A stretch of DNA of 39,586 bases from a virus, in the IMG/VR virus record IMGVR_UViG_3300037483_000555, positions 1-39,586 of that record; one strand, given 5' to 3'. A program made the position numbers and the translations under genes. The notes beneath the pieces are model-generated. The model had not been told where the DNA came from. It ran no database searches and saw only the letters and a program-made list of their open reading frames with translations. This document shows positions 1 to 39,586 of the stretch, piece after piece (the stretch's first letter is position 1; every line of letters begins with the position of its first letter).

Positions 1-127
1 GCCCAGATCGCGGGGCTCGACCCCATCGGTGCCGCCATCCGCATTGGAGAGATCGCGGCGACCATCACCAAGCCGGCACCGAAGAAGACCAGCGACGCCC
101 CCGCCCCGATCAACCCGGTCGGCGGAC
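1..127. repeat. Terminal direct repeat, left copy (identical to 39460-39586)
   Basis: Base-by-base reading shows gcccagatcgcggggctcgac...caacccggtcggcggac at both ends of the window. Confidence 0.95.
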
Positions 128-1792: not shown

Positions 1793-2485
1793 ATGAAAGT
1801 CGTGCTGTGCGTGCCCACGATTCGCCGACCGTATCCGCAGCTCCTCGCTGCCATCGCCGCCGCTGTGCCGCTGCTCGACGAGGCCGGCATCGAGCACGCA
1901 ATGGTGTCCGAGATCGGGAACCCCTACGTCAGTCAGGCGCGCAACGTGATGCTTCGCAAGGCGCTCGACGCCAAGGCGACGCACATCGTCTTTCTGGATC
2001 ACGACGTCTCATTTCGTCCGCAGGACCTCTTGAAGCTCATCCAGGCTGAGGGTGATGTGGTCGCGGGCACGTACCGATTCAAGCGCGACGTCGAGGAGTA
2101 CATGGGGACCGTCTTCACCGACAAGGACGGCTTCCCGCTGGGCCGCAAGGCGGACGGTGCGCTACACGCGCAGTGGGTGCCGGCGGGGTTCCTCAAGGTC
2201 ACGGACGGCGCGGTCAACCGCTTCATGGGGGCATATCCGCACCTGCTTTACGGGGTCCGCTACGCTCCCCACGTCGACCTCTTCAACCACGGCGCGCACG
2301 ACGGCGTGTGGTACGGCGAGGACTATGCCTTCTCGCGCAACTGGAATGACTGCGGTGGGCGTATCTGGCTCATCCCCGACCTCTCCATCACGCACCACGG
2401 CGCGGACGGGAAGGACTACCCGGGAAGCTTCCACGAATACCTGATGCGGCGCCCCGGTGGGGCCAAGGAGGTCACCGCAGCATGA
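1793..2485 (+). CDS. GT-A fold (family 2-like) glycosyltransferase
   Basis: MKVVLCVPTIRRP... N-terminus, a DHD (DXD-type) motif in VFLDHDV, and ...GEDYAF... further on. I chose the internal ATG at 1793 (AAGGA upstream) over the track start at 1736. Confidence 0.6.
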   Translation: MKVVLCVPTIRRPYPQLLAAIAAAVPLLDEAGIEHAMVSEIGNPYVSQARNVMLRKALDAKATHIVFLDHDVSFRPQDLLKLIQAEGDVVAGTYRFKRDVEEYMGTVFTDKDGFPLGRKADGALHAQWVPAGFLKVTDGAVNRFMGAYPHLLYGVRYAPHVDLFNHGAHDGVWYGEDYAFSRNWNDCGGRIWLIPDLSITHHGADGKDYPGSFHEYLMRRPGGAKEVTAA

Positions 2486-2979
2486 AGCGGGTCCTGCACG
2501 TCGGCTGCGCTCGGCAAGCGATGCCGAACTTTCTGGAGGGCTACAAGGAAGTGCGCATGGACATTGACCCGTCGTGTGAGCCTGACATCGTGGCGAACCT
2601 TCTGGACATGGGCGACATCGGCACGTTCGAGGCCGTGTTCGGGTGCCACGTGCTCGAGCACTTCACCGCGCCCGACGTGGCGCGCGTGCTCGCCGAGTGC
2701 CGGCGGGTGCTCAAGCCCGGCGGCTTCGCCGCGATGATCGTGCCGAACCTTGAGCACGTCCGCCCGACCCGCGACGTGGTCTATGTCTCGGAGGCCGGGC
2801 CGATCACGGGCCTGGACATGTACTACGGAAAGGAATCGTTCGTTTCCGAGAGCCCGTACATGGCGCACAAAACCGGCTTTGTGCCGGACACGCTGCGCGA
2901 AGCGTTCGCCGTGTTCGCTCCCGTCGAGGTGCGCGACATCTCCCAGTTCAATCTTCTGGCGATCGGAGTGAGGCAATGA
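2482..2979 (+). CDS. Class I SAM-dependent methyltransferase
   Basis: VLHVGC (motif I-like), DIDP, HVLEH and LKPGG motifs typical of the Methyltransf_11/23 type. ATGA overlap with the glycosyltransferase stop. Confidence 0.6.
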   Translation: MKRVLHVGCARQAMPNFLEGYKEVRMDIDPSCEPDIVANLLDMGDIGTFEAVFGCHVLEHFTAPDVARVLAECRRVLKPGGFAAMIVPNLEHVRPTRDVVYVSEAGPITGLDMYYGKESFVSESPYMAHKTGFVPDTLREAFAVFAPVEVRDISQFNLLAIGVRQ

Positions 2980-16312: not shown

Positions 16313-17545
16313 TTACAGGGCGGCTCCGGCATTTCTGCCCTGTTTCCGCGTAGTTGACTTGGCGGGCTCGGTCGAGCCTGCGCTATCCTGCGCTATGGTC
16401 GCTACCGGGGCGTCACCGCCAGCGAGATCCACGGCCAGGGCGGAGTGGACGCCAGGCGCCCAGAAGTCGGGCGCGAGGTGGGCGTACCGCTCCGTCACCG
16501 CGATCGAGGAGTGCCCCAAGAGCTTCTGGAGCTCGCGCAGCGGGCGCCCCGACATGGCCCAGTGGGACGCAAAGGTGTGACGGGTCGCCTCGTACCAACC
16601 GAGGCCCTCGCGCGCGAGCCCGAGGCCCTCCAGCGCGGCTTGGAGGAGCGGCCCCGGGGTGCCCTTGTCGATCTTGCTCCCGTCCTTCCGGAGCGGCGGG
16701 ACCACTCGCCCCGGCCCGGGGTGGCGCAGGCGCCACGCTTGGAGCACGGGCAGGAGAGGATCGAGGATCGGCACGGCTCGCGGCTCGCGGTCCTTCACCG
16801 GCCCTTTCACCGACTCGCGCACCAGGATGCGCCGAGCGAGGAGGTCCACGGAGATCCAGCGCAAGGCGAACACCTCGCCGGTCCGGAGCCCCGCCAGCGC
16901 GCCGATCGCGTAGGCGATCGACAGCGGCTCCTCAAGGGCGAGGTAGACGCGGCGGACGTCGGCGAGCTGCTCGACGAACGGCGTGGTCTCCGGGTCGTGG
17001 TCCGAGCGCATGAGACGCAGCAAGCTCTTGGGGAGGTGGCGGGCTGGGTTGCGGGCCGCCATGCCGCGCTCAAGCAGATCCTCGTAGAGCGACGACAGCA
17101 CGGCGACGACCACGCGGATCGTCGCCGGCGCGAGCTCACCCCGCTTCGCCTCCACGAGCGCGCGGAGGATGGCGGTGTCCACCTCGTCAGGCCGGAGGCG
17201 CCCGAGCGCCGGGGCGAGGTGCTTGTGCCAGCGGTAGCCGTCCTCGGCGCCAGCGGCGTGGGTGAGCTTCCGGCGCTCGAGCCAGGGGCCGGCGAGATCG
17301 GCGAGTTGAGGCGTGAGGCGCGGATCCGCTGCAACGCCAAGGCGGCGGTGGATCTTCTCGGCGCGGATGAGCGCGGCGCGAGCCTCGGCCTCGCTTTTGG
17401 TCCGGAACCCGGACTCATAGACCGCGGTGGAGCCTCGCCCGATGCGCAGGGCGTAGCCATTCCCCTCCCGGATGATGGTCCCCGAGCCCTTCGGTCGTCG
17501 GCGCATGGCCGCGGAGCCTACCGCGGCGGCGAGCGCGGCGGCCAC
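16313..17545 (-). CDS. int: Tyrosine recombinase / phage integrase
   Basis: LAGLRTGEVFALRW (Arg box) and TRHTFASHWAMSG...LLGHSSIAVTERYAHL (H-x-x-R ... Y) catalytic signature. GTG at 17545 or ATG at 17506 as the start. Confidence 0.9.
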   Translation of the reverse strand: MAAALAAAVGSAAMRRRPKGSGTIIREGNGYALRIGRGSTAVYESGFRTKSEAEARAALIRAEKIHRRLGVAADPRLTPQLADLAGPWLERRKLTHAAGAEDGYRWHKHLAPALGRLRPDEVDTAILRALVEAKRGELAPATIRVVVAVLSSLYEDLLERGMAARNPARHLPKSLLRLMRSDHDPETTPFVEQLADVRRVYLALEEPLSIAYAIGALAGLRTGEVFALRWISVDLLARRILVRESVKGPVKDREPRAVPILDPLLPVLQAWRLRHPGPGRVVPPLRKDGSKIDKGTPGPLLQAALEGLGLAREGLGWYEATRHTFASHWAMSGRPLRELQKLLGHSSIAVTERYAHLAPDFWAPGVHSALAVDLAGGDAPVATIAQDSAGSTEPAKSTTRKQGRNAGAAL

Positions 17546-21003: not shown

Positions 21004-21377
21004 CGGGTCTCCTGTCCAAGGGCAGCGCGGGCGCGCGCGGCGTGAATGGCGCACTTGAAGGTGGCGCTGACCATCGGTCCGCCCGGGATGCACTCGCCGC
21101 ACGCGTGATCCCAGAGCAGGCCCTCGGGGTAGGGGCGGAACACGGCCGGATCGCCACGCTCGATGTCGTAGCCTCGGTGTCTCCGTACTTGGCTTTCGGC
21201 CTCCATGAGGACCCATCGGTCGGCCAGTTCCAGCGCCCGCTCTGCGGCTGAGAGGCGGTCGAGGAGCGTCATCACCGTCAGGCCGGCTGGCGTCTCGCCC
21301 AGGGCTACCGCCATCCTCTTCGCCTCCATCACTTCGGGGTCCACCGGGGCCGCTCTATCGTCGGTTCGCTCGCTCAT
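21000..21377 (-). CDS. Hypothetical protein
   Basis: 125 aa from ATG 21377. ATGA overlaps on both sides. Confidence 0.45.
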   Translation of the reverse strand: MSERTDDRAAPVDPEVMEAKRMAVALGETPAGLTVMTLLDRLSAAERALELADRWVLMEAESQVRRHRGYDIERGDPAVFRPYPEGLLWDHACGECIPGGPMVSATFKCAIHAARARAALGQETR

Positions 21378-21805
21378 GTCTCTCGCCTCCCCTCCGCCTC
21401 GCGGGACTCCGCCCATTCCGGAGCCGCCTCCGCCCACGTCCGATCGTTCTCGTAGACGCGGACGTTCACGAGTTGGAAAGCCATCGTGGATTCGCGTCGC
21501 ATGAAGCGGAGCGCCTCACACAAGTACGCCACGATGTTCTCTACGGTCGGCTGCGCCAACACAGCCTCCGCGCCGCCGTGCTCCGCGAGCTCGTTCAGGT
21601 ATCGATGGTCGAGGCGCGCGATCACGGGGCCCATGCAGACATCCAGATCACCCGTGTCGATGACGAGTCCGTTCCCGAGTGGCCCGGCGACCGTGATCTC
21701 TACCGCGTAGGTGTGGCCATGCAAGCGGCTGCACCTGTGGCGCTCCCCGAGGCCAATGAGCCGATGCGCCGCTGAGAACGTATACCTGCGAGTCAACCTG
21801 ATCAC
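21374..21805 (-). CDS. queD: 6-carboxy-5,6,7,8-tetrahydropterin synthase (QueD / PTPS family)
   Basis: YTFSAAHRL...CSRLHGHTYAVEITV...GLVIDTGDL is the QueD/PTPS signature (Cys plus His-Gly-His). GTG 21805 follows GGGAGGG. GTGA overlap with the upstream gene. Confidence 0.75.
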   Translation of the reverse strand: MIRLTRRYTFSAAHRLIGLGERHRCSRLHGHTYAVEITVAGPLGNGLVIDTGDLDVCMGPVIARLDHRYLNELAEHGGAEAVLAQPTVENIVAYLCEALRFMRRESTMAFQLVNVRVYENDRTWAEAAPEWAESREAEGRRET

Positions 21806-22542
21806 GCAACCCTCCCAAAGAGCCCTTGCTGAACAGGGCGCCCGATCCATCTCTCGGCGCTCTGTTGAAACTCGATGCGCTCCGCCAGTACGAGAGCTCG
21901 CACCGCCTTGCTCGGCGGCTGGTAGGCCCCCGACCACGCCGCATCGATCCCGATGTTCCGCGCTATGTTCGTGCTGTCCGCGCTGGCGAACGGCAGCCGC
22001 GCGAAGAGTTCGGCGTCCAGCATCCGGAGTCCGTGCAGTTTCACCCGCGGGCGACCCTCCTCGTCACACACGACGCGCATGGCCTCATTCATCCGGGACC
22101 ACCAGGCGACCGACCCGGGATCCGAGTAGGCGCCCGAGCTGCCGAAGGCGACGCGCGGCCAGTCGGCGGCGAGACGCGCGAGGCGGTCCATGCTCTCGTG
22201 CAGGTGCCACACCGGAACGCCGAAGCGGCCATGCGGCCACTCCGTAAGCAGGGCGTCGTTCGCGGCCTCGTCGCCATCGATCACGTCGGGCACGATCGCG
22301 AAGTCGCAGGCGGGGTGCCGCAGAAGATCGCCAACCCACTCGTAGTACGGCGCCCAATCCGCGATCGGTTTGCCGCTGCGCCACGCACCGAAGGCCCCGT
22401 TGTCGAGGGCGAAGGACTGGCACAGCGAGGCGGCGATCCCGATCTGCCGCGAGTCGGACCACGACACGAACGCGTGCCGCCCGCGCAGCACCTCGGCTGC
22501 GACGCTCTCTGGCGTGATCGGCGTGCCGTGGAACGGAATCAC
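21802..22542 (-). CDS. TGT-fold, DpdA-like DNA (7-deazaguanine) transglycosylase candidate
   Basis: 246 aa from GTG 22542 (GAGG upstream, GTGA overlap). LDNGAF, VPDVIDG, LHGLRM and SADSTN are spaced like the DSGGF / D / G / D-containing strands of TGT/DpdA TIM barrels. Adjacent to queD. Confidence 0.45.
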   Translation of the reverse strand: MIPFHGTPITPESVAAEVLRGRHAFVSWSDSRQIGIAASLCQSFALDNGAFGAWRSGKPIADWAPYYEWVGDLLRHPACDFAIVPDVIDGDEAANDALLTEWPHGRFGVPVWHLHESMDRLARLAADWPRVAFGSSGAYSDPGSVAWWSRMNEAMRVVCDEEGRPRVKLHGLRMLDAELFARLPFASADSTNIARNIGIDAAWSGAYQPPSKAVRALVLAERIEFQQSAERWIGRPVQQGLFGRVA

Positions 22543-22991
22543 CGCGATGCCTCGCGGGACTCCGCGCGGCGCATGTCCTCGACCTTCGCCAGTCGGCGCG
22601 ACAGCACTCTCGCGGCCTCGGGCATCCCGCGCTCCACGCAATAAGCAGCCAGGCTGCGCAGCGTGGGCGGACACCCGGCGTGGACGCTGACGGCGCTCCG
22701 TTCGTCGTGGTGCGCGAAACAGAGCATCACCACGCACTCCAAGCGATCGGCCCGGAGGATATGGTGCATGTGCAGCAAATCCCGGGATCCGCACTCGACA
22801 CACTTGCGCCCGTCCCGCTCCATCGCCAGCGCCCGAAGCTCGGAGCGGCTCAGCCCCGGTTCCTGCGCCTTGGTCCGCCCCTCCCTCGGGATGCGCCGGG
22901 GCTTCCGGAGGAGACGCTTGGCCGGCTCCGAGATGCGCGGCGGCGCATGCTCGGCGGCCCAGGTCGCAACCGCTTTCAGATCTCGGTTCAT
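22539..22991 (-). CDS. HNH endonuclease
   Basis: CVECGSRDLLHMHHILRADRLECVVMLCFAHHDE gives a Cys pair plus an H-N-H-type histidine arrangement. GAGGA lies before the ATG. Confidence 0.7.
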   Translation of the reverse strand: MNRDLKAVATWAAEHAPPRISEPAKRLLRKPRRIPREGRTKAQEPGLSRSELRALAMERDGRKCVECGSRDLLHMHHILRADRLECVVMLCFAHHDERSAVSVHAGCPPTLRSLAAYCVERGMPEAARVLSRRLAKVEDMRRAESREASR

Positions 22992-23091
22992 CGCATCCTC
23001 AGGTGAATCCCCGCCACCCGGCTCACCGCCCGACTCCGAGACAGGGGGAGGGCTCGGGCGAGCGATGCGGCCGGGCGGCGGGAAGGGGGGG

Positions 23092-24122: not shown

Positions 24123-25097
24123 TCACTGCGCCGCGCTCCGAGGGGTTGCGACGTACGTGCGCTGCCAGTACGACGTTGCCTTCATCTGAAACGCCTTCTT
24201 CTCCACGTGCTTCGCCTTCACGAGGTAATCCCCGACCATCACTTCCTCGGCCTCTGGAAGCATCGTCTTGAGGCGCTTGTCGATGCTCTCGATCTCGCTC
24301 TTGGCGGGCGCCAGTTCCTGCCGGCGCGCGATGAGCGCCATCGCTTCCGCGTCATCAAAGAAGCGCACCCCTGGCCCCATGGCTCGGTTCGGCATGCAGA
24401 CGTGCGCGAAGGCGCACTTGCCGCACTCGTCGGACTCGGACCGGGGAAGGGGCTCGTTCGCCTTCACCGCATCCCGGATGCGCTCGGCCTTGGCCAGCAA
24501 GGCGTCGATGTGCGGCTGGTCTCGCGGGCAGTCGATGAACTGGATCTGCCCCGACGTCTTGTTCATGAGGGCGAAGACGCCTGCGGGCGCGTCGTCGAAG
24601 TGGATGTACAGCTGGAGTTGGGAGTAGTACTTGCGGATCCACTTCTGCGGGCAGTCGCGGATGTCGCCGATGGTCTCGATCTTGTCCGCCGAGTACGGGT
24701 TCAGGCCCTTGATCTCGAGGGGCAGCGGGCGCGGCCAACCCGTCATGCGGATCTTGGCGTCGGCGTGGCCGGTGAGTTCCCGGTCCCGATCGTGGTAGTC
24801 GCGCTCACGCTGGACGATGTCGCAACCCATGGCCTCGAGTTCGCGGACTATGTAGCGCTCCAGATTGTTGCCGAGGTCGAAGATGGCCTGGAGCTCGGGC
24901 GGGTGCGGCTGGCGCAGTTCACCGGCCGTGCGCTCGTAGAACAGGAAGCGCTCGCACTCGTGGCCGATGGAGGACGCTCGGGAGGTGTGCGCCGCCGAGA
25001 CGCGGACGCGGGACTTCTTGAGGTCCCAGAAACGCTCCCGGAGCTGCTCGGCCGGGGAGAGCGCCGCCGGCATCGCTTCCTGTGTGGTCGCTTCCAT
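24123..25097 (-). CDS. PD-(D/E)XK exonuclease, Cas4/RecB-like with a 4-Cys cluster
   Basis: GHADAKI ... LPLEIKG (D ... ExK), YSQLQLY (QxxxY), and one N-terminal Cys (GHECERF) plus C-terminal CGKCAFAHVC (C-x2-C-x5-C). Confidence 0.7.
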   Translation of the reverse strand: MEATTQEAMPAALSPAEQLRERFWDLKKSRVRVSAAHTSRASSIGHECERFLFYERTAGELRQPHPPELQAIFDLGNNLERYIVRELEAMGCDIVQRERDYHDRDRELTGHADAKIRMTGWPRPLPLEIKGLNPYSADKIETIGDIRDCPQKWIRKYYSQLQLYIHFDDAPAGVFALMNKTSGQIQFIDCPRDQPHIDALLAKAERIRDAVKANEPLPRSESDECGKCAFAHVCMPNRAMGPGVRFFDDAEAMALIARRQELAPAKSEIESIDKRLKTMLPEAEEVMVGDYLVKAKHVEKKAFQMKATSYWQRTYVATPRSAAQ

Positions 25098-27235: not shown

Positions 27236-27541
27236 CTACGACCGCGACCACGACCCCGACCGCGACCACGACCGCGACCACGACCGCGACCACGACCGCG
27301 ACCACGACCGCGACCACGACCGCGACCACGACCACGACCACGACCGCGACCGCGACCCCGACCCCGACCGCGACAGCGACCGCGACCGCGACCCCGACCG
27401 CGACCCCGACCCCGACCGCGACCCCGACCCCGACCGCGACCACGACCACGACCGCGACCCCGACCCCGACCGCGACCCCGACCCCGACCGCGACCACGAC
27501 AGCTCGTAGCCGAGGCGGAGCACCGCTGCGCTCGCGGCCAT
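27236..27541 (-). CDS. Candidate low-complexity Ser/Arg/Gly/Trp repeat protein (frame uncertain)
   Basis: The ATG lies 1 nt after the upstream stop, and the ORF ends 33 nt before the next start. GC3 is 100 percent. A competing (GR)n frame ending at 27199 cannot be excluded. Confidence 0.3.
   Translation of the reverse strand: MAASAAVLRLGYELSWSRSGSGSRSGSGSRSWSWSRSGSGSRSGSGSRSGSRSRSLSRSGSGSRSRSWSWSWSRSWSRSWSRSWSRSWSRSWSRSGSWSRS
27240..27503. repeat. 44 tandem hexamers GACCNC (N = G, A or C; two units are GACAGC)
   Basis: Read directly. Units are in register from 27240 to 27503. There is a (GACCGC GACCAC)n block and (GACCCC GACCCC GACCGC)n blocks. Confidence 0.95.
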
Positions 27542-30897: not shown

Positions 30898-31143
30898 ATG
30901 CCGTCCATTTGTCCATCCCGCCCCCTCTCCAGCGCGCAGCTCCTCGAGCTCGCGTCGCTCGTCTCCTTCACCGGCGCCAGCTACCGGGCGATCGCACTGA
31001 CCATGGGGCTAAGAAGCCACGAGTGTGTGTGCTGGATCTGCGGGGGCGTCCAACCCCTCGGCTGTAGCGGCGTGTGCCGCGGGGGGCCTTCTATCGAGGA
31101 GCGCGGCGCCGAGCGCGCGAGGATCAGGGGGAGCGTCCGGTGA
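30898..31143 (+). CDS. Hypothetical small HTH-like, Cys-rich protein
   Basis: 81 aa, high GC3, GTGA overlap with the methyltransferase start. Confidence 0.4.
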   Translation: MPSICPSRPLSSAQLLELASLVSFTGASYRAIALTMGLRSHECVCWICGGVQPLGCSGVCRGGPSIEERGAERARIRGSVR

Positions 31144-31910
31144 GCGACCACGTGGTTCACCTCGGAGACTGCCTCGACCCCGTGACTGGGCTCGCGTCGC
31201 TGCCGGACAAGAGCGTGGACCACTGCCTGACCGACCCGCCATACGAGGCCGAGGCGCACACGCTGCAGCGGCGGGTGAAGCGATCCACGGGAACACAGGA
31301 TGGTGGGGCGTTTTTCAACCATGATGATCGTGTGGTCAAGCTGGACGCCCTCTCGTTCGAGCCCCTCTCGTTCGAGGTCCGCGTTGAGGCGGCGCGCCAG
31401 ATCGCCCGCGTGACGCGGCGCTGGTGTGTCGCCTTCTGCCAGGTTGAGGCGGCGATGGCGTGGCGTGAGGCGCTGGTGTCGGCCGGGATGAGCTACCGGC
31501 GGACGGGTGTGTGGGTGAAGCCGGACGGCATGCCCCAGTACAGCGGTGATCGACCGGGGATGGGGTACGAGTCGCTGGTCATCTGCCACGCCCCGGGCCG
31601 CTCTTCTTGGAATGGGGGTGGGCGCCCGGGGGTGTGGGTGTTCAACAAGATGGGCCCCGAGGATCGGAAGCGCACCGGACACGAGACCCAAAAGCCTATT
31701 GCGTTAATGGAGGCGCTAGTACGTGACTTCACGGACGAGGGCGACACAATACTCGACCCCTTCGCCGGCAGCGGCACAACCATGATGGCGGCGAAACGCC
31801 TGGGGCGCAAGGCGATCGGCTGGGAGCGCGACCCCAGGTATCACGCAATCGCGGCCAAACGGATTACTACAGCGCGCGAACAATACGGACTTTGGGTGGG
31901 TGGCGCATGA
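31140..31910 (+). CDS. DNA methyltransferase (N6-adenine/N4-cytosine family, beta-type motif order)
   Basis: 256 aa from GTG 31140. Catalytic LTDPPYEAE comes first and SAM-binding ILDPFAGSGTTMMAAKRLGRKAIGWE comes near the C-terminus. Confidence 0.8.
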   Translation: MSDHVVHLGDCLDPVTGLASLPDKSVDHCLTDPPYEAEAHTLQRRVKRSTGTQDGGAFFNHDDRVVKLDALSFEPLSFEVRVEAARQIARVTRRWCVAFCQVEAAMAWREALVSAGMSYRRTGVWVKPDGMPQYSGDRPGMGYESLVICHAPGRSSWNGGGRPGVWVFNKMGPEDRKRTGHETQKPIALMEALVRDFTDEGDTILDPFAGSGTTMMAAKRLGRKAIGWERDPRYHAIAAKRITTAREQYGLWVGGA

Positions 31911-38855: not shown

Positions 38856-39586
38856 CGAGATCACCGCACCCGAGCCCACGGCGACGGTCACACCAGCGCC
38901 GACGCAGGGCGACAGCACGCAGACCCCAGCTCCGGAGACGAGCGACGGCGCGGAGACGCAGGACGCCAAGCCGGATGCCGGCGGAGACGACCCCGAGCCA
39001 CAGCGGCCCGCGCTACCCAAGGGTGTGCAGAAGCGGATCGACCGCCTGACCCGCGAGAAGTACCGGCTACAGGCGGAGCTCGAGGTGGCGCGCAAACAGG
39101 CGCCGCAGCCCGAGCCGCAGGCCAAGCCGGCGGCGGACGGTGCGCCGAAGCCCGATCAATTCAAGAGCTACGAGGAGTTTCTCGAGGCCCGCGCCGAGTG
39201 GAAGGCAGAACAGCGGGTGGGGACCCTCCTCGGCGAGCTGCGCGAGAAGGCACAGCGCCAGGCCGGCCAGGCCGAGCAGGAGAAGTTGCAGTCCCAGTGG
39301 GAGAAGCGCGTCGGTGAGGCGCTGACCACGTACGACGACTTCGAGGAGGTGGCCCTCTCGCCAGAGGTGCCGATCTCTGAGCCGATGATGGCTGCCATCC
39401 TCCGTTCGCCGAAGGGCGCGGACGTGGCCTATCACCTCGGCAAGAACCGAGAGCTTGCTGCCCAGATCGCGGGGCTCGACCCCATCGGTGCCGCCATCCG
39501 CATTGGAGAGATCGCGGCGACCATCACCAAGCCGGCACCGAAGAAGACCAGCGACGCCCCCGCCCCGATCAACCCGGTCGGCGGAC
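38848..39586 (+). CDS. Scaffolding protein, N-terminal part (runs off the window and continues at 128-216)
   Basis: ATG overlaps the portal stop (AATGGCTGA). Pro/Ala/Glu/Lys/Gln-rich helical protein between portal and coat. 275 aa in total once the junction is closed. Confidence 0.65.
   Translation, partial: MADEITAPEPTATVTPAPTQGDSTQTPAPETSDGAETQDAKPDAGGDDPEPQRPALPKGVQKRIDRLTREKYRLQAELEVARKQAPQPEPQAKPAADGAPKPDQFKSYEEFLEARAEWKAEQRVGTLLGELREKAQRQAGQAEQEKLQSQWEKRVGEALTTYDDFEEVALSPEVPISEPMMAAILRSPKGADVAYHLGKNRELAAQIAGLDPIGAAIRIGEIAATITKPAPKKTSDAPAPINPVGG
39460..39586. repeat. Terminal direct repeat, right copy (identical to 1-127)
   Basis: Same 127-nt string as the window start. It lies inside the scaffold ORF and keeps the frame, because 39459 is divisible by 3. 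Confidence 0.95.

What the first reader, a model, noticed from the sequence alone, without database searches (positions are those of the whole stretch)
21374..22991. Minimal QueD plus TGT/DpdA-like pair (with adjacent HNH): possible 7-deazaguanine DNA modification module
A clear QueD (CSRLHGHTY and FSAAHRL motifs) is translationally coupled (GTGA) to a 246-aa protein. That protein's LDNGAF / VPDVIDG / LHGLRM / SADSTN motifs follow the strand order of TGT-fold transglycosylases. An HNH endonuclease is coupled immediately upstream.

Established knowledge: phage DpdA enzymes insert preQ0-type 7-deazaguanines into DNA, using FolE/QueD/QueE/QueC products, to evade restriction. Here only QueD accompanies the transglycosylase. 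The phage would therefore depend on host FolE, QueE and QueC, or it makes a different base. The short DpdA-like protein may represent a divergent subfamily.
Basis: partly seen in the sequence, partly recalled or inferred. Interest (0 to 1): 0.7.

Follow-up and report, generated by a model that had tools for sequence, protein, structure and literature searches.

The report
Phage DpdA plus QueD DNA-modification cassette
A P22-like temperate phage carries a coupled gene pair, a short DpdA-type DNA base-swapping enzyme and a genuine QueD, that most likely places a 7-deazaguanine base in its DNA with host help; it is a recurrent variant of a known anti-restriction system, not a new one.

Summary
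Three minus-strand genes overlap by GTGA: an HNH-like ORF (22539-22991), a 246-aa protein (21802-22542) and QueD (21374-21805).

- **QueD:** canonical. It hits Pfam PTPS at 3.5e-27, its best solved match is E. coli QueD, and CxxxHGH and the zinc histidines are intact.
- **The 246-aa protein:** a phage DpdA. It shares phrog_887 with the experimentally validated CAjan DpdA (hhalign 96% probability, motifs aligned). It is 49-57% identical to the "DpdA-only" proteins of BTP1, SfI and SPN3UB catalogued in 2019. I found no direct similarity to TGT itself.
- **Rest of the pathway:** FolE, QueE and QueC are absent from the whole 39,459-bp circular genome.
- **How common the pair is:** among 165 related loci, 21 have a QueD-like partner (9 with the catalytic Cys), 23 have YhhQ, 42 have a small unknown protein and 82 have none.
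- **Unit of inheritance:** relatives keep DpdA-QueD without the HNH. The nearest sister phage lacks DpdA and QueD, so they are exchangeable cargo.

The function (preQ0-type DNA modification that depends on host enzymes) is inferred, not shown. I rate it a new member of a known kind, of moderate-low interest.

The parts
21802..22542 (-). DpdA-family protein, 246 aa (short 'singleton' clade); predicted DNA guanine / 7-deazaguanine transglycosylase
   Evidence: phrog_887 at 2e-68, the same PHROG as CAjan DpdA at 8e-96. hhalign of A1 against CAjan DpdA: 96.3% probability, E 1.5e-9. BLASTP 28% over 154 aa, E 2e-12. 49-57% identical to the BTP1, SPN3UB and SfI proteins. AF2 pLDDT 81.7. BFVD matches to phage DpdA-annotated models.
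21374..21805 (-). QueD (6-carboxy-5,6,7,8-tetrahydropterin synthase), 143 aa, translationally coupled to DpdA (GTGA)
   Evidence: Pfam PF01242 at 3.5e-27. TIGR03367 QueD is the best NCBIfam model, at 75.7 bits against a cutoff of 89.25. Best PDB match is E. coli QueD 4ntm at 1.6e-14, with FSAAH, CxxxHGH and LDHxYLN aligned.
22539..22991 (-). HNH-like ORF, 150 aa (CxxC...HHI...CxxHH); occupies the first position of the slot but is not a conserved partner of DpdA
   Evidence: Weak PHROG HNH hits at 5e-4 to 7e-3. A match to the IscB HNH region at 4e-4. No homologue next to DpdA in other loci.
22986..23089 (.). Upstream cassette boundary: intergenic region, ribosome-binding site and first codons, conserved with sister phage L255
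   Evidence: blastn 88% to L255 5584-5678; alignment A4.
21371..21412 (.). Downstream cassette boundary: last ~11 codons of QueD, the ribosome-binding site and the start of the next ORF, conserved with sister phage L255
   Evidence: blastn 95% to L255 6138-6179; alignment A3.
22390..22407 (-). DpdA motif LDNGAF (D47 invariant)
   Evidence: Invariant in 31 sequences. Aligns with LDSGAF of CAjan DpdA.
22273..22290 (-). DpdA motif PDVIDG (P85, D86, G90 invariant)
   Evidence: Aligns with ASVLDG of CAjan DpdA.
22018..22035 (-). DpdA motif HGLRML (all six residues invariant)
   Evidence: Aligns with HAFGIT of CAjan DpdA.
21967..21984 (-). DpdA motif SADSTN (S187, A188, D189, S190, N192 invariant)
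   Evidence: Aligns with SCDSS of CAjan DpdA.
21713..21733 (-). QueD signature CxxxHGH (C25, H29, H31)
   Evidence: Read directly from the sequence. Aligned to E. coli QueD KCGRLHGH. The signature is cited in PMC10516641.

Best explanation
The pair 21374-22542 is a two-gene 7-deazaguanine DNA-modification cassette. It sits in the early-left operon of a complete, circularly assembled 39,459-bp P22-like temperate phage, downstream of the recombination genes and upstream of xis/int.

Proposed mechanism:
1. After infection or induction, phage QueD converts the host FolE product (dihydroneopterin triphosphate) to CPH4. This is the first step committed to 7-deazaguanines, so it pulls flux into the pathway.
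2. Host QueE and QueC complete preQ0.
3. The short DpdA exchanges some guanines in double-stranded phage DNA for preQ0, or a close derivative, after replication. This blunts restriction and similar defences.

Shown here: the gene identities, the translational coupling, the absence of the other pathway genes, recurrence of the pair, and its cargo-like behaviour. Inferred: the substrate base, DNA as the target, reliance on host QueE, QueC and FolE, and the protective effect.

The HNH-like ORF is a neighbour in the same slot, not a functional partner.
For: **Identity of DpdA**
- phrog_887 is shared with CAjan DpdA.
- hhalign gives 96.3% probability with LDNGAF/LDSGAF, PDVIDG/ASVLDG, HGLRML/HAFGIT and SADST/SCDSS aligned.
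- BLASTP E 2e-12.
- BFVD structural matches to phage queuine tRNA-ribosyltransferase models at 1e-7 to 9e-4.
- CAjan DpdA is needed for 32% G-to-dPreQ0 replacement; the dpdA deletion mutant has none (PMC6884629).

**Identity of QueD:**

**Host dependence is feasible:** 9g dpdA expressed alone in E. coli put dPreQ0 into plasmid DNA using host preQ0 (PMC6884629).

**No FolE, QueE or QueC in the genome**
- Pfam over essentially all ORFs.
- Six-frame tblastn with the CAjan enzymes, which did detect homologues at 28-36% identity in other loci.

**Guilt by association across the clade.** In 165 loci, the gene families I probed with reference sequences (suggested by an unbiased clustering of neighbours) that recur directly beside DpdA are 7-deazaguanine genes: QueD-like in 21 loci (19 adjacent, same strand) and YhhQ-type preQ0/preQ1 transporter in 23. 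The other is one unknown small protein in 42 loci. QueD, YhhQ and that protein almost never co-occur.

**The pair is conserved as a unit:** L257 (DpdA 91%, QueD 76%) and L256 (72%, 72%).

**It behaves as cargo:** the sister phage (integrase 97%) lacks DpdA and QueD at the same slot, between conserved junctions.
Against: - No direct similarity to TGT or to any solved structure: Pfam none, PDB sequence profile none, hhalign against E. coli TGT 0.3% probability, and Foldseek PDB only generic TIM barrels at E>=9e-3.
- No member of this short clade has been tested experimentally, as far as the searchable literature shows.
- The two DpdA-only phages that were tested gave no modification (Orion) or only 0.02% dADG (7-11).
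- The host is unknown, so the presence of host QueE, QueC and FolE could not be checked.
- Half of the clade's loci (82 of 165) have no partner gene.
- 18 of 30 QueD-like partners elsewhere lack the catalytic Cys, so the clade's chemistry may not be uniform.
Confidence: 0.6

Rival explanations
1. The short DpdA clade has diverged in function. It may insert a different base, such as preQ1, G+, CDG or another deazapurine, or act on DNA in another way. QueD then feeds a pathway whose later steps differ from host preQ0 synthesis.
For: - The clade is a separate cluster from the pathway-linked DpdA in the published similarity network, and the authors flagged possible functional divergence (PMC6884629).
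- Only 28% identity to CAjan DpdA, over 154 of 246 residues.
- 60 residues shorter than CAjan DpdA, with no CxCxxC-type cysteine cluster (direct reading).
- Partners vary: an unknown small protein in 42 loci and Cys-less QueD-like proteins in 18 of 30.
Against: - In this window QueD is fully canonical.
- Some members of the same clade sit beside QueC-QueE-QueD or FolE-QueD-QueE sets, or beside YhhQ, all of which point to preQ0 or preQ1.
- The motif residues shared with CAjan DpdA are invariant.
Confidence: 0.2
2. The pair acts on the host tRNA/queuosine economy rather than on DNA. QueD raises the Q-precursor supply and the DpdA-like enzyme works as a tRNA transglycosylase, tuning translation during lytic growth.
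For: - Public annotation calls the family 'queuine tRNA-ribosyltransferase'.
- Phages that carry preQ0 genes without DpdA have been suggested to boost Q in tRNA (PMC6884629).
Against: - That annotation is inherited from remote TGT similarity.
- Every DpdA tested so far (9g, CAjan, bacterial DpdA) acts on DNA.
- The protein has no detectable TGT match and lacks the C-terminal part of TGT (246 aa against 375).
Confidence: 0.08
3. The genes are incidental or decaying cargo with no effect on the phage. QueD and the DpdA-like gene are neighbours by mosaic chance.
For: - The nearest sister phage does without them.
- Orion, a DpdA-only phage, carries no modification.
Against: - Both ORFs are intact, with catalytic residues conserved.
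- They are translationally coupled.
- The adjacency is kept while the proteins diverge to 72%.
- DpdA proteins stay at 55-65% identity to this one in prophages and MAG contigs assigned to several phyla, which indicates purifying selection.
Confidence: 0.05

Closest known systems
'DpdA-only' (singleton) temperate phages: Salmonella BTP1 and SPN3UB, Shigella SfI, HK106, Vibrio Athena1 (third group of Hutinet et al. 2019, PMC6884629)
   Same: - Same DpdA clade: 49-57% identity over 93% of the protein, listed in Suppl. Data 1.
- Same kind of phage. BTP1 is classified as a Lederbergvirus; the window has P22 coat, portal, scaffold and tailspike.
- In several hits the gene lies next to genes annotated Ead/Ea22-like or EaD, which suggests a similar early-region position (not examined further).
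   Different: Those phages are listed with no preQ0-pathway gene. Here a canonical QueD is translationally coupled downstream. No row of the 2019 table I read (part 1 of 2) shows DpdA plus QueD alone. None of this clade has a published modification measurement that I could find.
Queuovirinae DpdA1 systems (Escherichia phage CAjan, Enterobacteria phage 9g)
   Same: Homologous transglycosylase (phrog_887; hhalign 96%). QueD is present. The expected chemistry is post-replicative G-to-preQ0 exchange.
   Different: - CAjan and 9g encode the whole FolE-QueD-QueE-QueC (or Gat-QueC) set.
- Their DpdA is 306 aa and only 28% identical.
- They are siphophages, not P22-like podophages.
- Modification is measured at 25-32% of G.
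Partial-pathway phages in the published catalogue (Mycobacterium phage Bipper without QueC; Escherichia phage SLUR25 without FolE; Acidovorax phage ACP17 without QueC)
   Same: An incomplete phage-encoded preQ0 pathway next to a DpdA, which implies host complementation or a different end product.
   Different: Those lack one enzyme. This phage keeps only one (QueD) and uses the short DpdA clade.
Bacterial Dpd system (DpdA/DpdB/DpdC islands)
   Same: A DpdA-type transglycosylase inserting preQ0 into DNA using cellular preQ0 (PMC10516641 introduction).
   Different: - The bacterial system is a restriction-modification-like island with DpdB and DpdC and further genes.
- None of these is present here.
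- The published network separates bDpdA from phage DpdA.
tRNA-guanine transglycosylase (TGT, PF01702)
   Same: Presumed common ancestry of DpdA with TGT (published HHpred results). The model is a beta/alpha barrel.
   Different: No similarity detectable with the tools used here. 246 aa against 375 aa. No zinc-cysteine cluster.

Membership tests
Phage DpdA (DNA 7-deazaguanine transglycosylase; phrog_887) | Significant sequence or profile similarity to an experimentally validated DpdA | tested here: met
   phrog_887 at 2e-68 for the window protein and 8.2e-96 for CAjan DpdA. hhalign 96.3% probability, E 1.5e-9, 147 columns. BLASTP E 2e-12.
Phage DpdA (DNA 7-deazaguanine transglycosylase; phrog_887) | Conservation of the acidic active-site motifs shared with validated DpdA (LDxGAF Asp; S/C-x-D-S Asp) | tested here: met
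   D47 and D189 are invariant in 31 family members and align with the LDSGAF and SCDSS Asp residues of CAjan DpdA. Their equivalence to the TGT catalytic Asp residues is from memory and was not tested.
Phage DpdA (DNA 7-deazaguanine transglycosylase; phrog_887) | TGT-like (beta/alpha)8 barrel fold | tested here: inconclusive
   The AF2 model (pLDDT 81.7) has alternating strands and helices. Foldseek PDB returns only generic TIM barrels at E>=9e-3, with no TGT in the top 50. BFVD returns phage DpdA-annotated models at 1e-7 to 9e-4, TM 0.46-0.65.
Phage DpdA (DNA 7-deazaguanine transglycosylase; phrog_887) | Genomic association with 7-deazaguanine synthesis or salvage genes | tested here: met
   QueD is coupled here. 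Across 165 loci of the clade, 21 have QueD-like, 23 have YhhQ, and a few have QueC, QueE or FolE.
Phage DpdA (DNA 7-deazaguanine transglycosylase; phrog_887) | 7-deazaguanine nucleosides present in DNA in a DpdA-dependent way | not testable with these tools
   Needs LC-MS/MS of virion or plasmid DNA.
QueD / CPH4 synthase (PF01242, TIGR03367) | PTPS/QueD T-fold domain above the curated threshold | tested here: met
   PF01242 at 95.2 bits against a cutoff of 22.4. Best PDB matches are E. coli QueD 4ntm and 3qn0.
QueD / CPH4 synthase (PF01242, TIGR03367) | CxxxHGH signature plus the first zinc histidine and the DH pair | tested here: met
   H14 (FSAAH), C25, H29, H31 and LDHRYLN align with E. coli QueD. 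The motif definition is cited in PMC10516641. It is not the DpdL form LxxxHRHxF.
QueD / CPH4 synthase (PF01242, TIGR03367) | NCBIfam equivalog cutoff for TIGR03367 | tested here: not met
   75.7 bits against a cutoff of 89.25. It is still the top-scoring model. This is a divergent phage-type QueD, so its enzyme activity should be confirmed by complementation.
tRNA-guanine transglycosylase (TGT, PF01702) | Match to the TGT profile or to a TGT sequence | tested here: not met
   No Pfam hit at E<=1. No PDB chain at E<=10 with the family profile. hhalign against E. coli TGT gives 0.3% probability.
tRNA-guanine transglycosylase (TGT, PF01702) | C-terminal zinc-binding cysteine/histidine cluster | tested here: not met
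   Direct reading: the only conserved cysteines are C41 and C159, with no CxCxxC cluster. The motif definition is from memory.
HNH endonuclease | HNH/His-Me finger motif with flanking CxxC / CxxH zinc ligands | tested here: inconclusive
   C64xxC67...H76H77I...C91xxH94H95 is present. Profile hits are only weak: PHROG HNH families at 5e-4 to 7e-3, the IscB HNH region at 4e-4, and no Pfam hit.

The most novel reading that the evidence does not exclude
The short DpdA clade of temperate phages may be a modular 'bring-your-own-precursor' system. One conserved transglycosylase would be combined with one of three near-exclusive supply modules:
- a flux-committing QueD, as in this window;
- a YhhQ importer;
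- an uncharacterised ~80-aa Cys/His protein (phrog_37496), or Cys-less QueD-like proteins.

If so, a single enzyme (QueD) would be enough to raise host 7-deazaguanine output to DNA-modifying levels. The different partners might also specify different bases, some not yet described.
Probability: 0.25. Interest if true: 0.55.

Novelty: new member of a known kind. Interest (0 to 1): 0.33.

Why it matters
If virion DNA is modified, this would be the first evidence that the very large 'DpdA-only' clade of temperate P22- and lambda-like phages is active. That clade has over 7,000 90%-identity clusters, in prophages and MAG contigs assigned to Proteobacteria, Acidobacteriota, Planctomycetota and other phyla.

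It would also show that adding QueD alone, the committed step, is enough to tap host metabolism for DNA hypermodification. That bears on two practical points. One is predicting which prophages resist restriction or Cas nucleases. The other is sequencing and cloning artefacts in metagenomic phage DNA.

As it stands it is a well-supported annotation of a known system in a new gene-content combination, not a new mechanism.

Tried and rejected
**Linking the protein directly to TGT.** All attempts were negative or non-specific, so the TGT link is left to the literature.
- Pfam and NCBIfam.
- PDB sequence search with the family profile.
- hhalign against E. coli TGT.
- Foldseek against PDB.

**Nucleotide-level relatives among deposited phages.** None by megablast.

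**FolE, QueE or QueC elsewhere in the genome.** Rejected by Pfam on all ORF sets and by six-frame tblastn.

**QueD as a DpdL-like decarboxylase or a Cys-less variant.** Rejected for the window, because CxxxHGH is intact. It is true for many partners elsewhere.

**HNH as part of the module.** Rejected. It has no homologue beside DpdA in 246 loci, in L256 or in L257. The sister phage has a different weak-HNH ORF in the slot.

- No tRNA.
- Terminase and DpdA relatives carry no organism names.
- The best genome hits are only 65% identical or less.

**The small partner protein (phrog_37496).** No Pfam or PDB sequence hit. The QueF/QueF-L resemblance is by eye only.

**Link between phrog_15826 proteins and DpdA.** These proteins sit next to the closest QueD relatives. 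The link is only weak: E 1.6e-4 and hhalign E 0.013.

**Other searches that led nowhere.**
- The promoter and terminator scan was uninformative.
- An IMG/VR search with the exonuclease found nothing.
- Deposited phages with a similar QueD have full pathways, or do not have this DpdA beside the QueD.
Full report
**1. What is in the sequence**

The window is 68% G+C. Its first and last 127 bases are identical, so it is a circularly assembled genome of 39,459 bp. No tRNA gene is present. It is a P22-like temperate phage:
- P22 coat PF11651, SU10/gp4-like adaptor and gp7-like ejection protein.
- P22 portal PF16510 at E 2.5e-177, scaffold and Terminase_3.
- A beta-helix tailspike, a tyrosine integrase (16313-17545, minus strand), an excisionase-like HTH protein, a CcrM-like N6-adenine methyltransferase and a DnaB-like helicase.

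The finding lies in a long minus-strand operon, in this order:
1. Cas4-type exonuclease, 24123-25097 (phrog_1990).
2. A 344-aa ORF.
3. A 100-bp gap.
4. HNH-like ORF, 22539-22991.
5. The 246-aa ORF, 21802-22542.
6. QueD, 21374-21805.
7. Several unknown ORFs, then xis and int.

The three ORFs of the finding overlap as GTGA and GTGA. QueD overlaps the next ORF as ATGA. Each has a GGAGG-type ribosome-binding site. A second assembly of the same phage (Logan SRR12684493) was gene-called independently with the same 150, 246 and 143-aa products. The JGI call of QueD (116 aa, starting LHGHTY) removes the catalytic Cys and is a mis-start.

**2. QueD**

- Pfam PTPS at E 3.5e-27.
- The best NCBIfam model is TIGR03367 'QueD', at 75.7 bits. 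This is below the equivalog cutoff of 89.25.
- The best solved relatives are E. coli QueD 4ntm and 3qn0. FSAAH, (K/R)C(G/S)RLHGH and LDHxYLN all align.

This is the CxxxHGH signature of QueD. It is not the LxxxHRHxF form of the proposed decarboxylase DpdL (PMC10516641).

**3. The 246-aa protein**

It has no Pfam or NCBIfam match. It hits phrog_887 'queuine tRNA-ribosyltransferase' at 2e-68. The experimentally validated CAjan DpdA falls in the same PHROG, at 8e-96.

A 31-sequence family alignment (A1) compared with CAjan DpdA gives hhalign probability 96.3% and E 1.5e-9.

| Window protein | CAjan DpdA |
|---|---|
| LDNGAF | LDSGAF |
| PDVIDG | ASVLDG |
| KLHGLRML | KLHAFGIT |
| SADST | SCDSS |

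Pairwise BLASTP gives 28% identity over 154 residues, E 2e-12.

The AlphaFold model has pLDDT 81.7 and pTM 0.80 and shows alternating strands and helices.
- Against predicted viral structures, it matches proteins annotated queuine tRNA-ribosyltransferase: Arthrobacter phages Mufasa8 and Sonali, Microbacterium phage Megan, Dinoroseobacter phage R5C, Mycobacterium phage Bella96 and a Sulfolobales rudivirus. E-values run from 1e-7 to 9e-4.
- Against PDB, it finds only generic TIM barrels, with nothing at E<=1e-3 and no TGT in the top 50.
- The family profile finds no PDB chain.
- hhalign against E. coli TGT is null.

So membership in the phage DpdA family is supported.

**4. The clade is known and very large**

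- tblastn against deposited phages finds 121 records. The best are Salmonella BTP1, SPN3UB and related phages, Vibrio Athena1, Shigella SfI, and Klebsiella, Pantoea, Acinetobacter and Pseudomonas phages, at 49-57% identity.
- BTP1, SPN3UB, SfI, HK106 and Athena1 are listed as 'DpdA only' in Supplementary Data 1 of Hutinet et al. 2019. That paper describes the singleton DpdAs as forming separate clusters in its similarity network, one of them specific to phages of gamma-proteobacteria.
- At 50% clustering, 275 representatives score E<=1e-30 and 1,705 score E<=1e-3.
- Genome hits at 49-65% identity lie in Pseudomonas, Cupriavidus, Acidovorax, Burkholderia, Enterobacterales, Acinetobacter, Aeromonas, Acidobacteriota, Planctomycetota and others.

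**5. No other pathway gene in the phage**

Pfam over essentially all predicted ORFs found no GTP cyclohydrolase I, radical-SAM QueE or QueC. Six-frame tblastn with the CAjan enzymes found none in the window. The same queries did detect homologues at 28-36% identity in other loci.

**6. How unusual is QueD plus DpdA?**

I collected 246 loci of this clade from IMG/VR, GTDB species genomes and metagenomes. Of these, 165 have at least 800 bp on both sides of DpdA. Partner genes among those 165:

| Partner found in locus | Loci |
|---|---|
| None recognisable | 82 |
| ~80-aa protein of unknown function (phrog_37496) | 42 |
| YhhQ/Vut_1 preQ0/preQ1 transporter | 23 |
| QueD-like | 21 |
| QueE | 4 |
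| QueC | 2 |
| FolE | 1 |

- Of the 21 QueD-like partners, 19 lie within 300 bp on the same strand, 12 upstream and 7 downstream.
- QueD never co-occurs with YhhQ or the small protein; YhhQ and the small protein share a locus in 5 of 165.
- Of the 21, 9 carry the catalytic Cys. Two of those 9 sit in larger QueC/QueE or FolE/QueE sets.
- Seven of the 21 have Ser and five have Tyr in place of Cys. Over all 30 QueD-like partners the split is 12 Cys, 12 Ser, 5 Tyr and 1 Val.
- The exact architecture of the window, canonical QueD alone plus short DpdA, is therefore found in about 4% of loci. Five of those seven loci are Acidobacteriota MAG contigs; the other two are unassigned metagenome contigs.

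In an average-linkage tree of 166 DpdA proteins, the QueD-partnered ones fall into 12 separate groups. The closest long-contig relative of the window's DpdA (78% identity, L006) carries YhhQ and a nucleoside-deoxyribosyltransferase-like gene instead. Partners are therefore swapped often.

Within the window's own lineage the pair is stable. L257 has DpdA at 91% and QueD at 76% identity, and L256 has 72% and 72%. Both keep the stop/start overlap, and neither has the HNH.

No row of the 2019 catalogue table I read (part 1 of 2) shows DpdA with QueD alone. Full-text searches found no paper on it.

**7. Cargo behaviour**

An IMG/VR contig of 38,707 bp (L255) is a sister phage, with integrase 97% identical and structural genes about 90% identical at nucleotide level. 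It shares two short junctions with the window:
- Window 22986-23089 matches L255 5584-5678 at 88% (alignment A4).
- Window 21371-21412 matches L255 6138-6179 at 95% (alignment A3).

Between these junctions the window has HNH-DpdA-QueD, about 1.57 kb. The sister has a single 167-aa ORF with weak HNH similarity. The first 28 residues of that ORF resemble the window's HNH. Its last 11 residues (ESREAEGRQET) match the C-terminus of the window's QueD. DpdA and QueD are thus exchangeable cargo in a conserved slot of the early operon.

**8. Mechanism**

Established knowledge (PMC6884629, PMC10516641):
- The pathway runs GTP to H2NTP (FolE), to CPH4 (QueD), to CDG (QueE), to preQ0 (QueC).
- DpdA exchanges G for preQ0 in DNA after replication.
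- CAjan needs dpdA for its 32% replacement.
- 9g dpdA alone in E. coli inserts host-made preQ0 into plasmid DNA at 0.03-0.3% of G.

By inference, this phage supplies the committed step (QueD) and the transglycosylase, and borrows FolE, QueE and QueC from its host. The near-exclusive alternation of QueD, YhhQ and the small protein beside the same enzyme suggests alternative ways to secure substrate. I give this reading 0.6.

Reasons for caution:
- No member of the clade has been tested.
- Of the two DpdA-only phages that were tested, Orion had no modification and 7-11 had only 0.02% dADG.
- The host is unknown.
- TGT-level structural similarity was not recovered.

The rivals are functional divergence of the clade (0.2), action on tRNA (0.08) and inert cargo (0.05).

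**9. Verdict**

It is wrong or overstated on the HNH, on uniqueness and on subfamily novelty. This is a new member of a known kind of system, in a gene combination that is recurrent in metagenomes but not described in the literature I could search. I score interest at about 0.33.

Noticed in passing
L013:561-977 (core ~80 aa); also L007:6744-7004, L011:5756-6004, L054:6747-7013 and others: A small protein family (phrog_37496) is the commonest neighbour of this DpdA clade. It occurs in 42 of 165 loci, on either side of DpdA, always on the same strand. Its consensus is xNxYRxxFxAxCPxNG..IxYxLxI...VEHI...GxHExIADxL..RFGGxQTLxAxHHGVxIET. It has no Pfam or PDB sequence match. By eye it recalls the Cys-containing core of QueF/QueF-L T-fold enzymes; this was not tested.
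   Followed up: partly
L037, L038, L040, L041, L058, L062, L012, L072, L119, L201, L236, L250 (Ser); L046, L059, L107, L215, L216 (Tyr); L202 (Val): 18 of the 30 QueD-like genes found beside this DpdA clade lack the catalytic Cys of CxxxHGH, with Ser, Tyr or Val in its place. They may be a different T-fold activity rather than CPH4 synthase. The window's QueD is canonical.
   Followed up: partly
L006:10741-11606: The closest long-contig relative of the window's DpdA (78% identity, a 36-kb phage contig) has, instead of QueD, a nucleoside 2-deoxyribosyltransferase-like gene and a YhhQ/Vut_1 queuosine-precursor transporter directly downstream. This looks like a salvage version of the module.
   Followed up: partly
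L170:954-1562, L171:760-1368, L169:9543-9953: The closest QueD relatives that lack this DpdA (58-66% identity) sit next to ~200-aa proteins of phrog_15826. These carry DN..W, VPD and GADS motifs in the same order as DpdA. The statistical link to DpdA is only weak (E 1.6e-4; hhalign E 0.013). They may be a still shorter DpdA-like family.
   Followed up: partly
window 1-127 and 39460-39586: An exact 127-bp terminal direct repeat. The contig is a circular assembly of 39,459 bp, that is, a complete genome.
   Followed up: yes
window 21371-21412 and 22986-23089; L255:5584-6179: Conserved junction sequences bound the HNH-DpdA-QueD block. The sister phage L255 has a single 167-aa weak-HNH ORF in the same slot, sharing the first 28 residues with the window's HNH and the last 11 residues with the window's QueD. 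This is a clean example of a mosaic exchange whose boundaries lie inside coding ends.
   Followed up: yes
window 27239-27500: A tandem array of about 22 copies of a 12-nt unit (CGACCACGACCG; also scored with an 18-nt period). It lies between two minus-strand early genes, and a mechanical ORF reads through it as DRDHDRDH... Function unknown; it could be an origin or iteron region, or a hypervariable repeat. L255 has a comparable repeat at about 1660-1950.
   Followed up: no
window 21374-21724 versus 21374-21805: The public JGI gene call for QueD (P0121, 116 aa) starts at an internal TTG. It omits the catalytic Cys and the first zinc-binding His. The GTG at 21805, which forms the GTGA overlap with DpdA, gives the full domain.
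   Followed up: yes
window 1793-2979: A glycosyltransferase-like ORF (weak Anp1 match) and a SAM-dependent methyltransferase (Methyltransf_11) lie between the P22-type coat gene and the adaptor gene. This is an unusual place for enzymes in a P22-like structural module.
   Followed up: no
window 31074-31910: A CcrM-like N6-adenine DNA methyltransferase (PF01555 at 1.1e-27). It is a second, independent DNA-modification gene in the same phage. DNA methyltransferases (C5 and N6/N4) are also frequent near DpdA in related loci.
   Followed up: no
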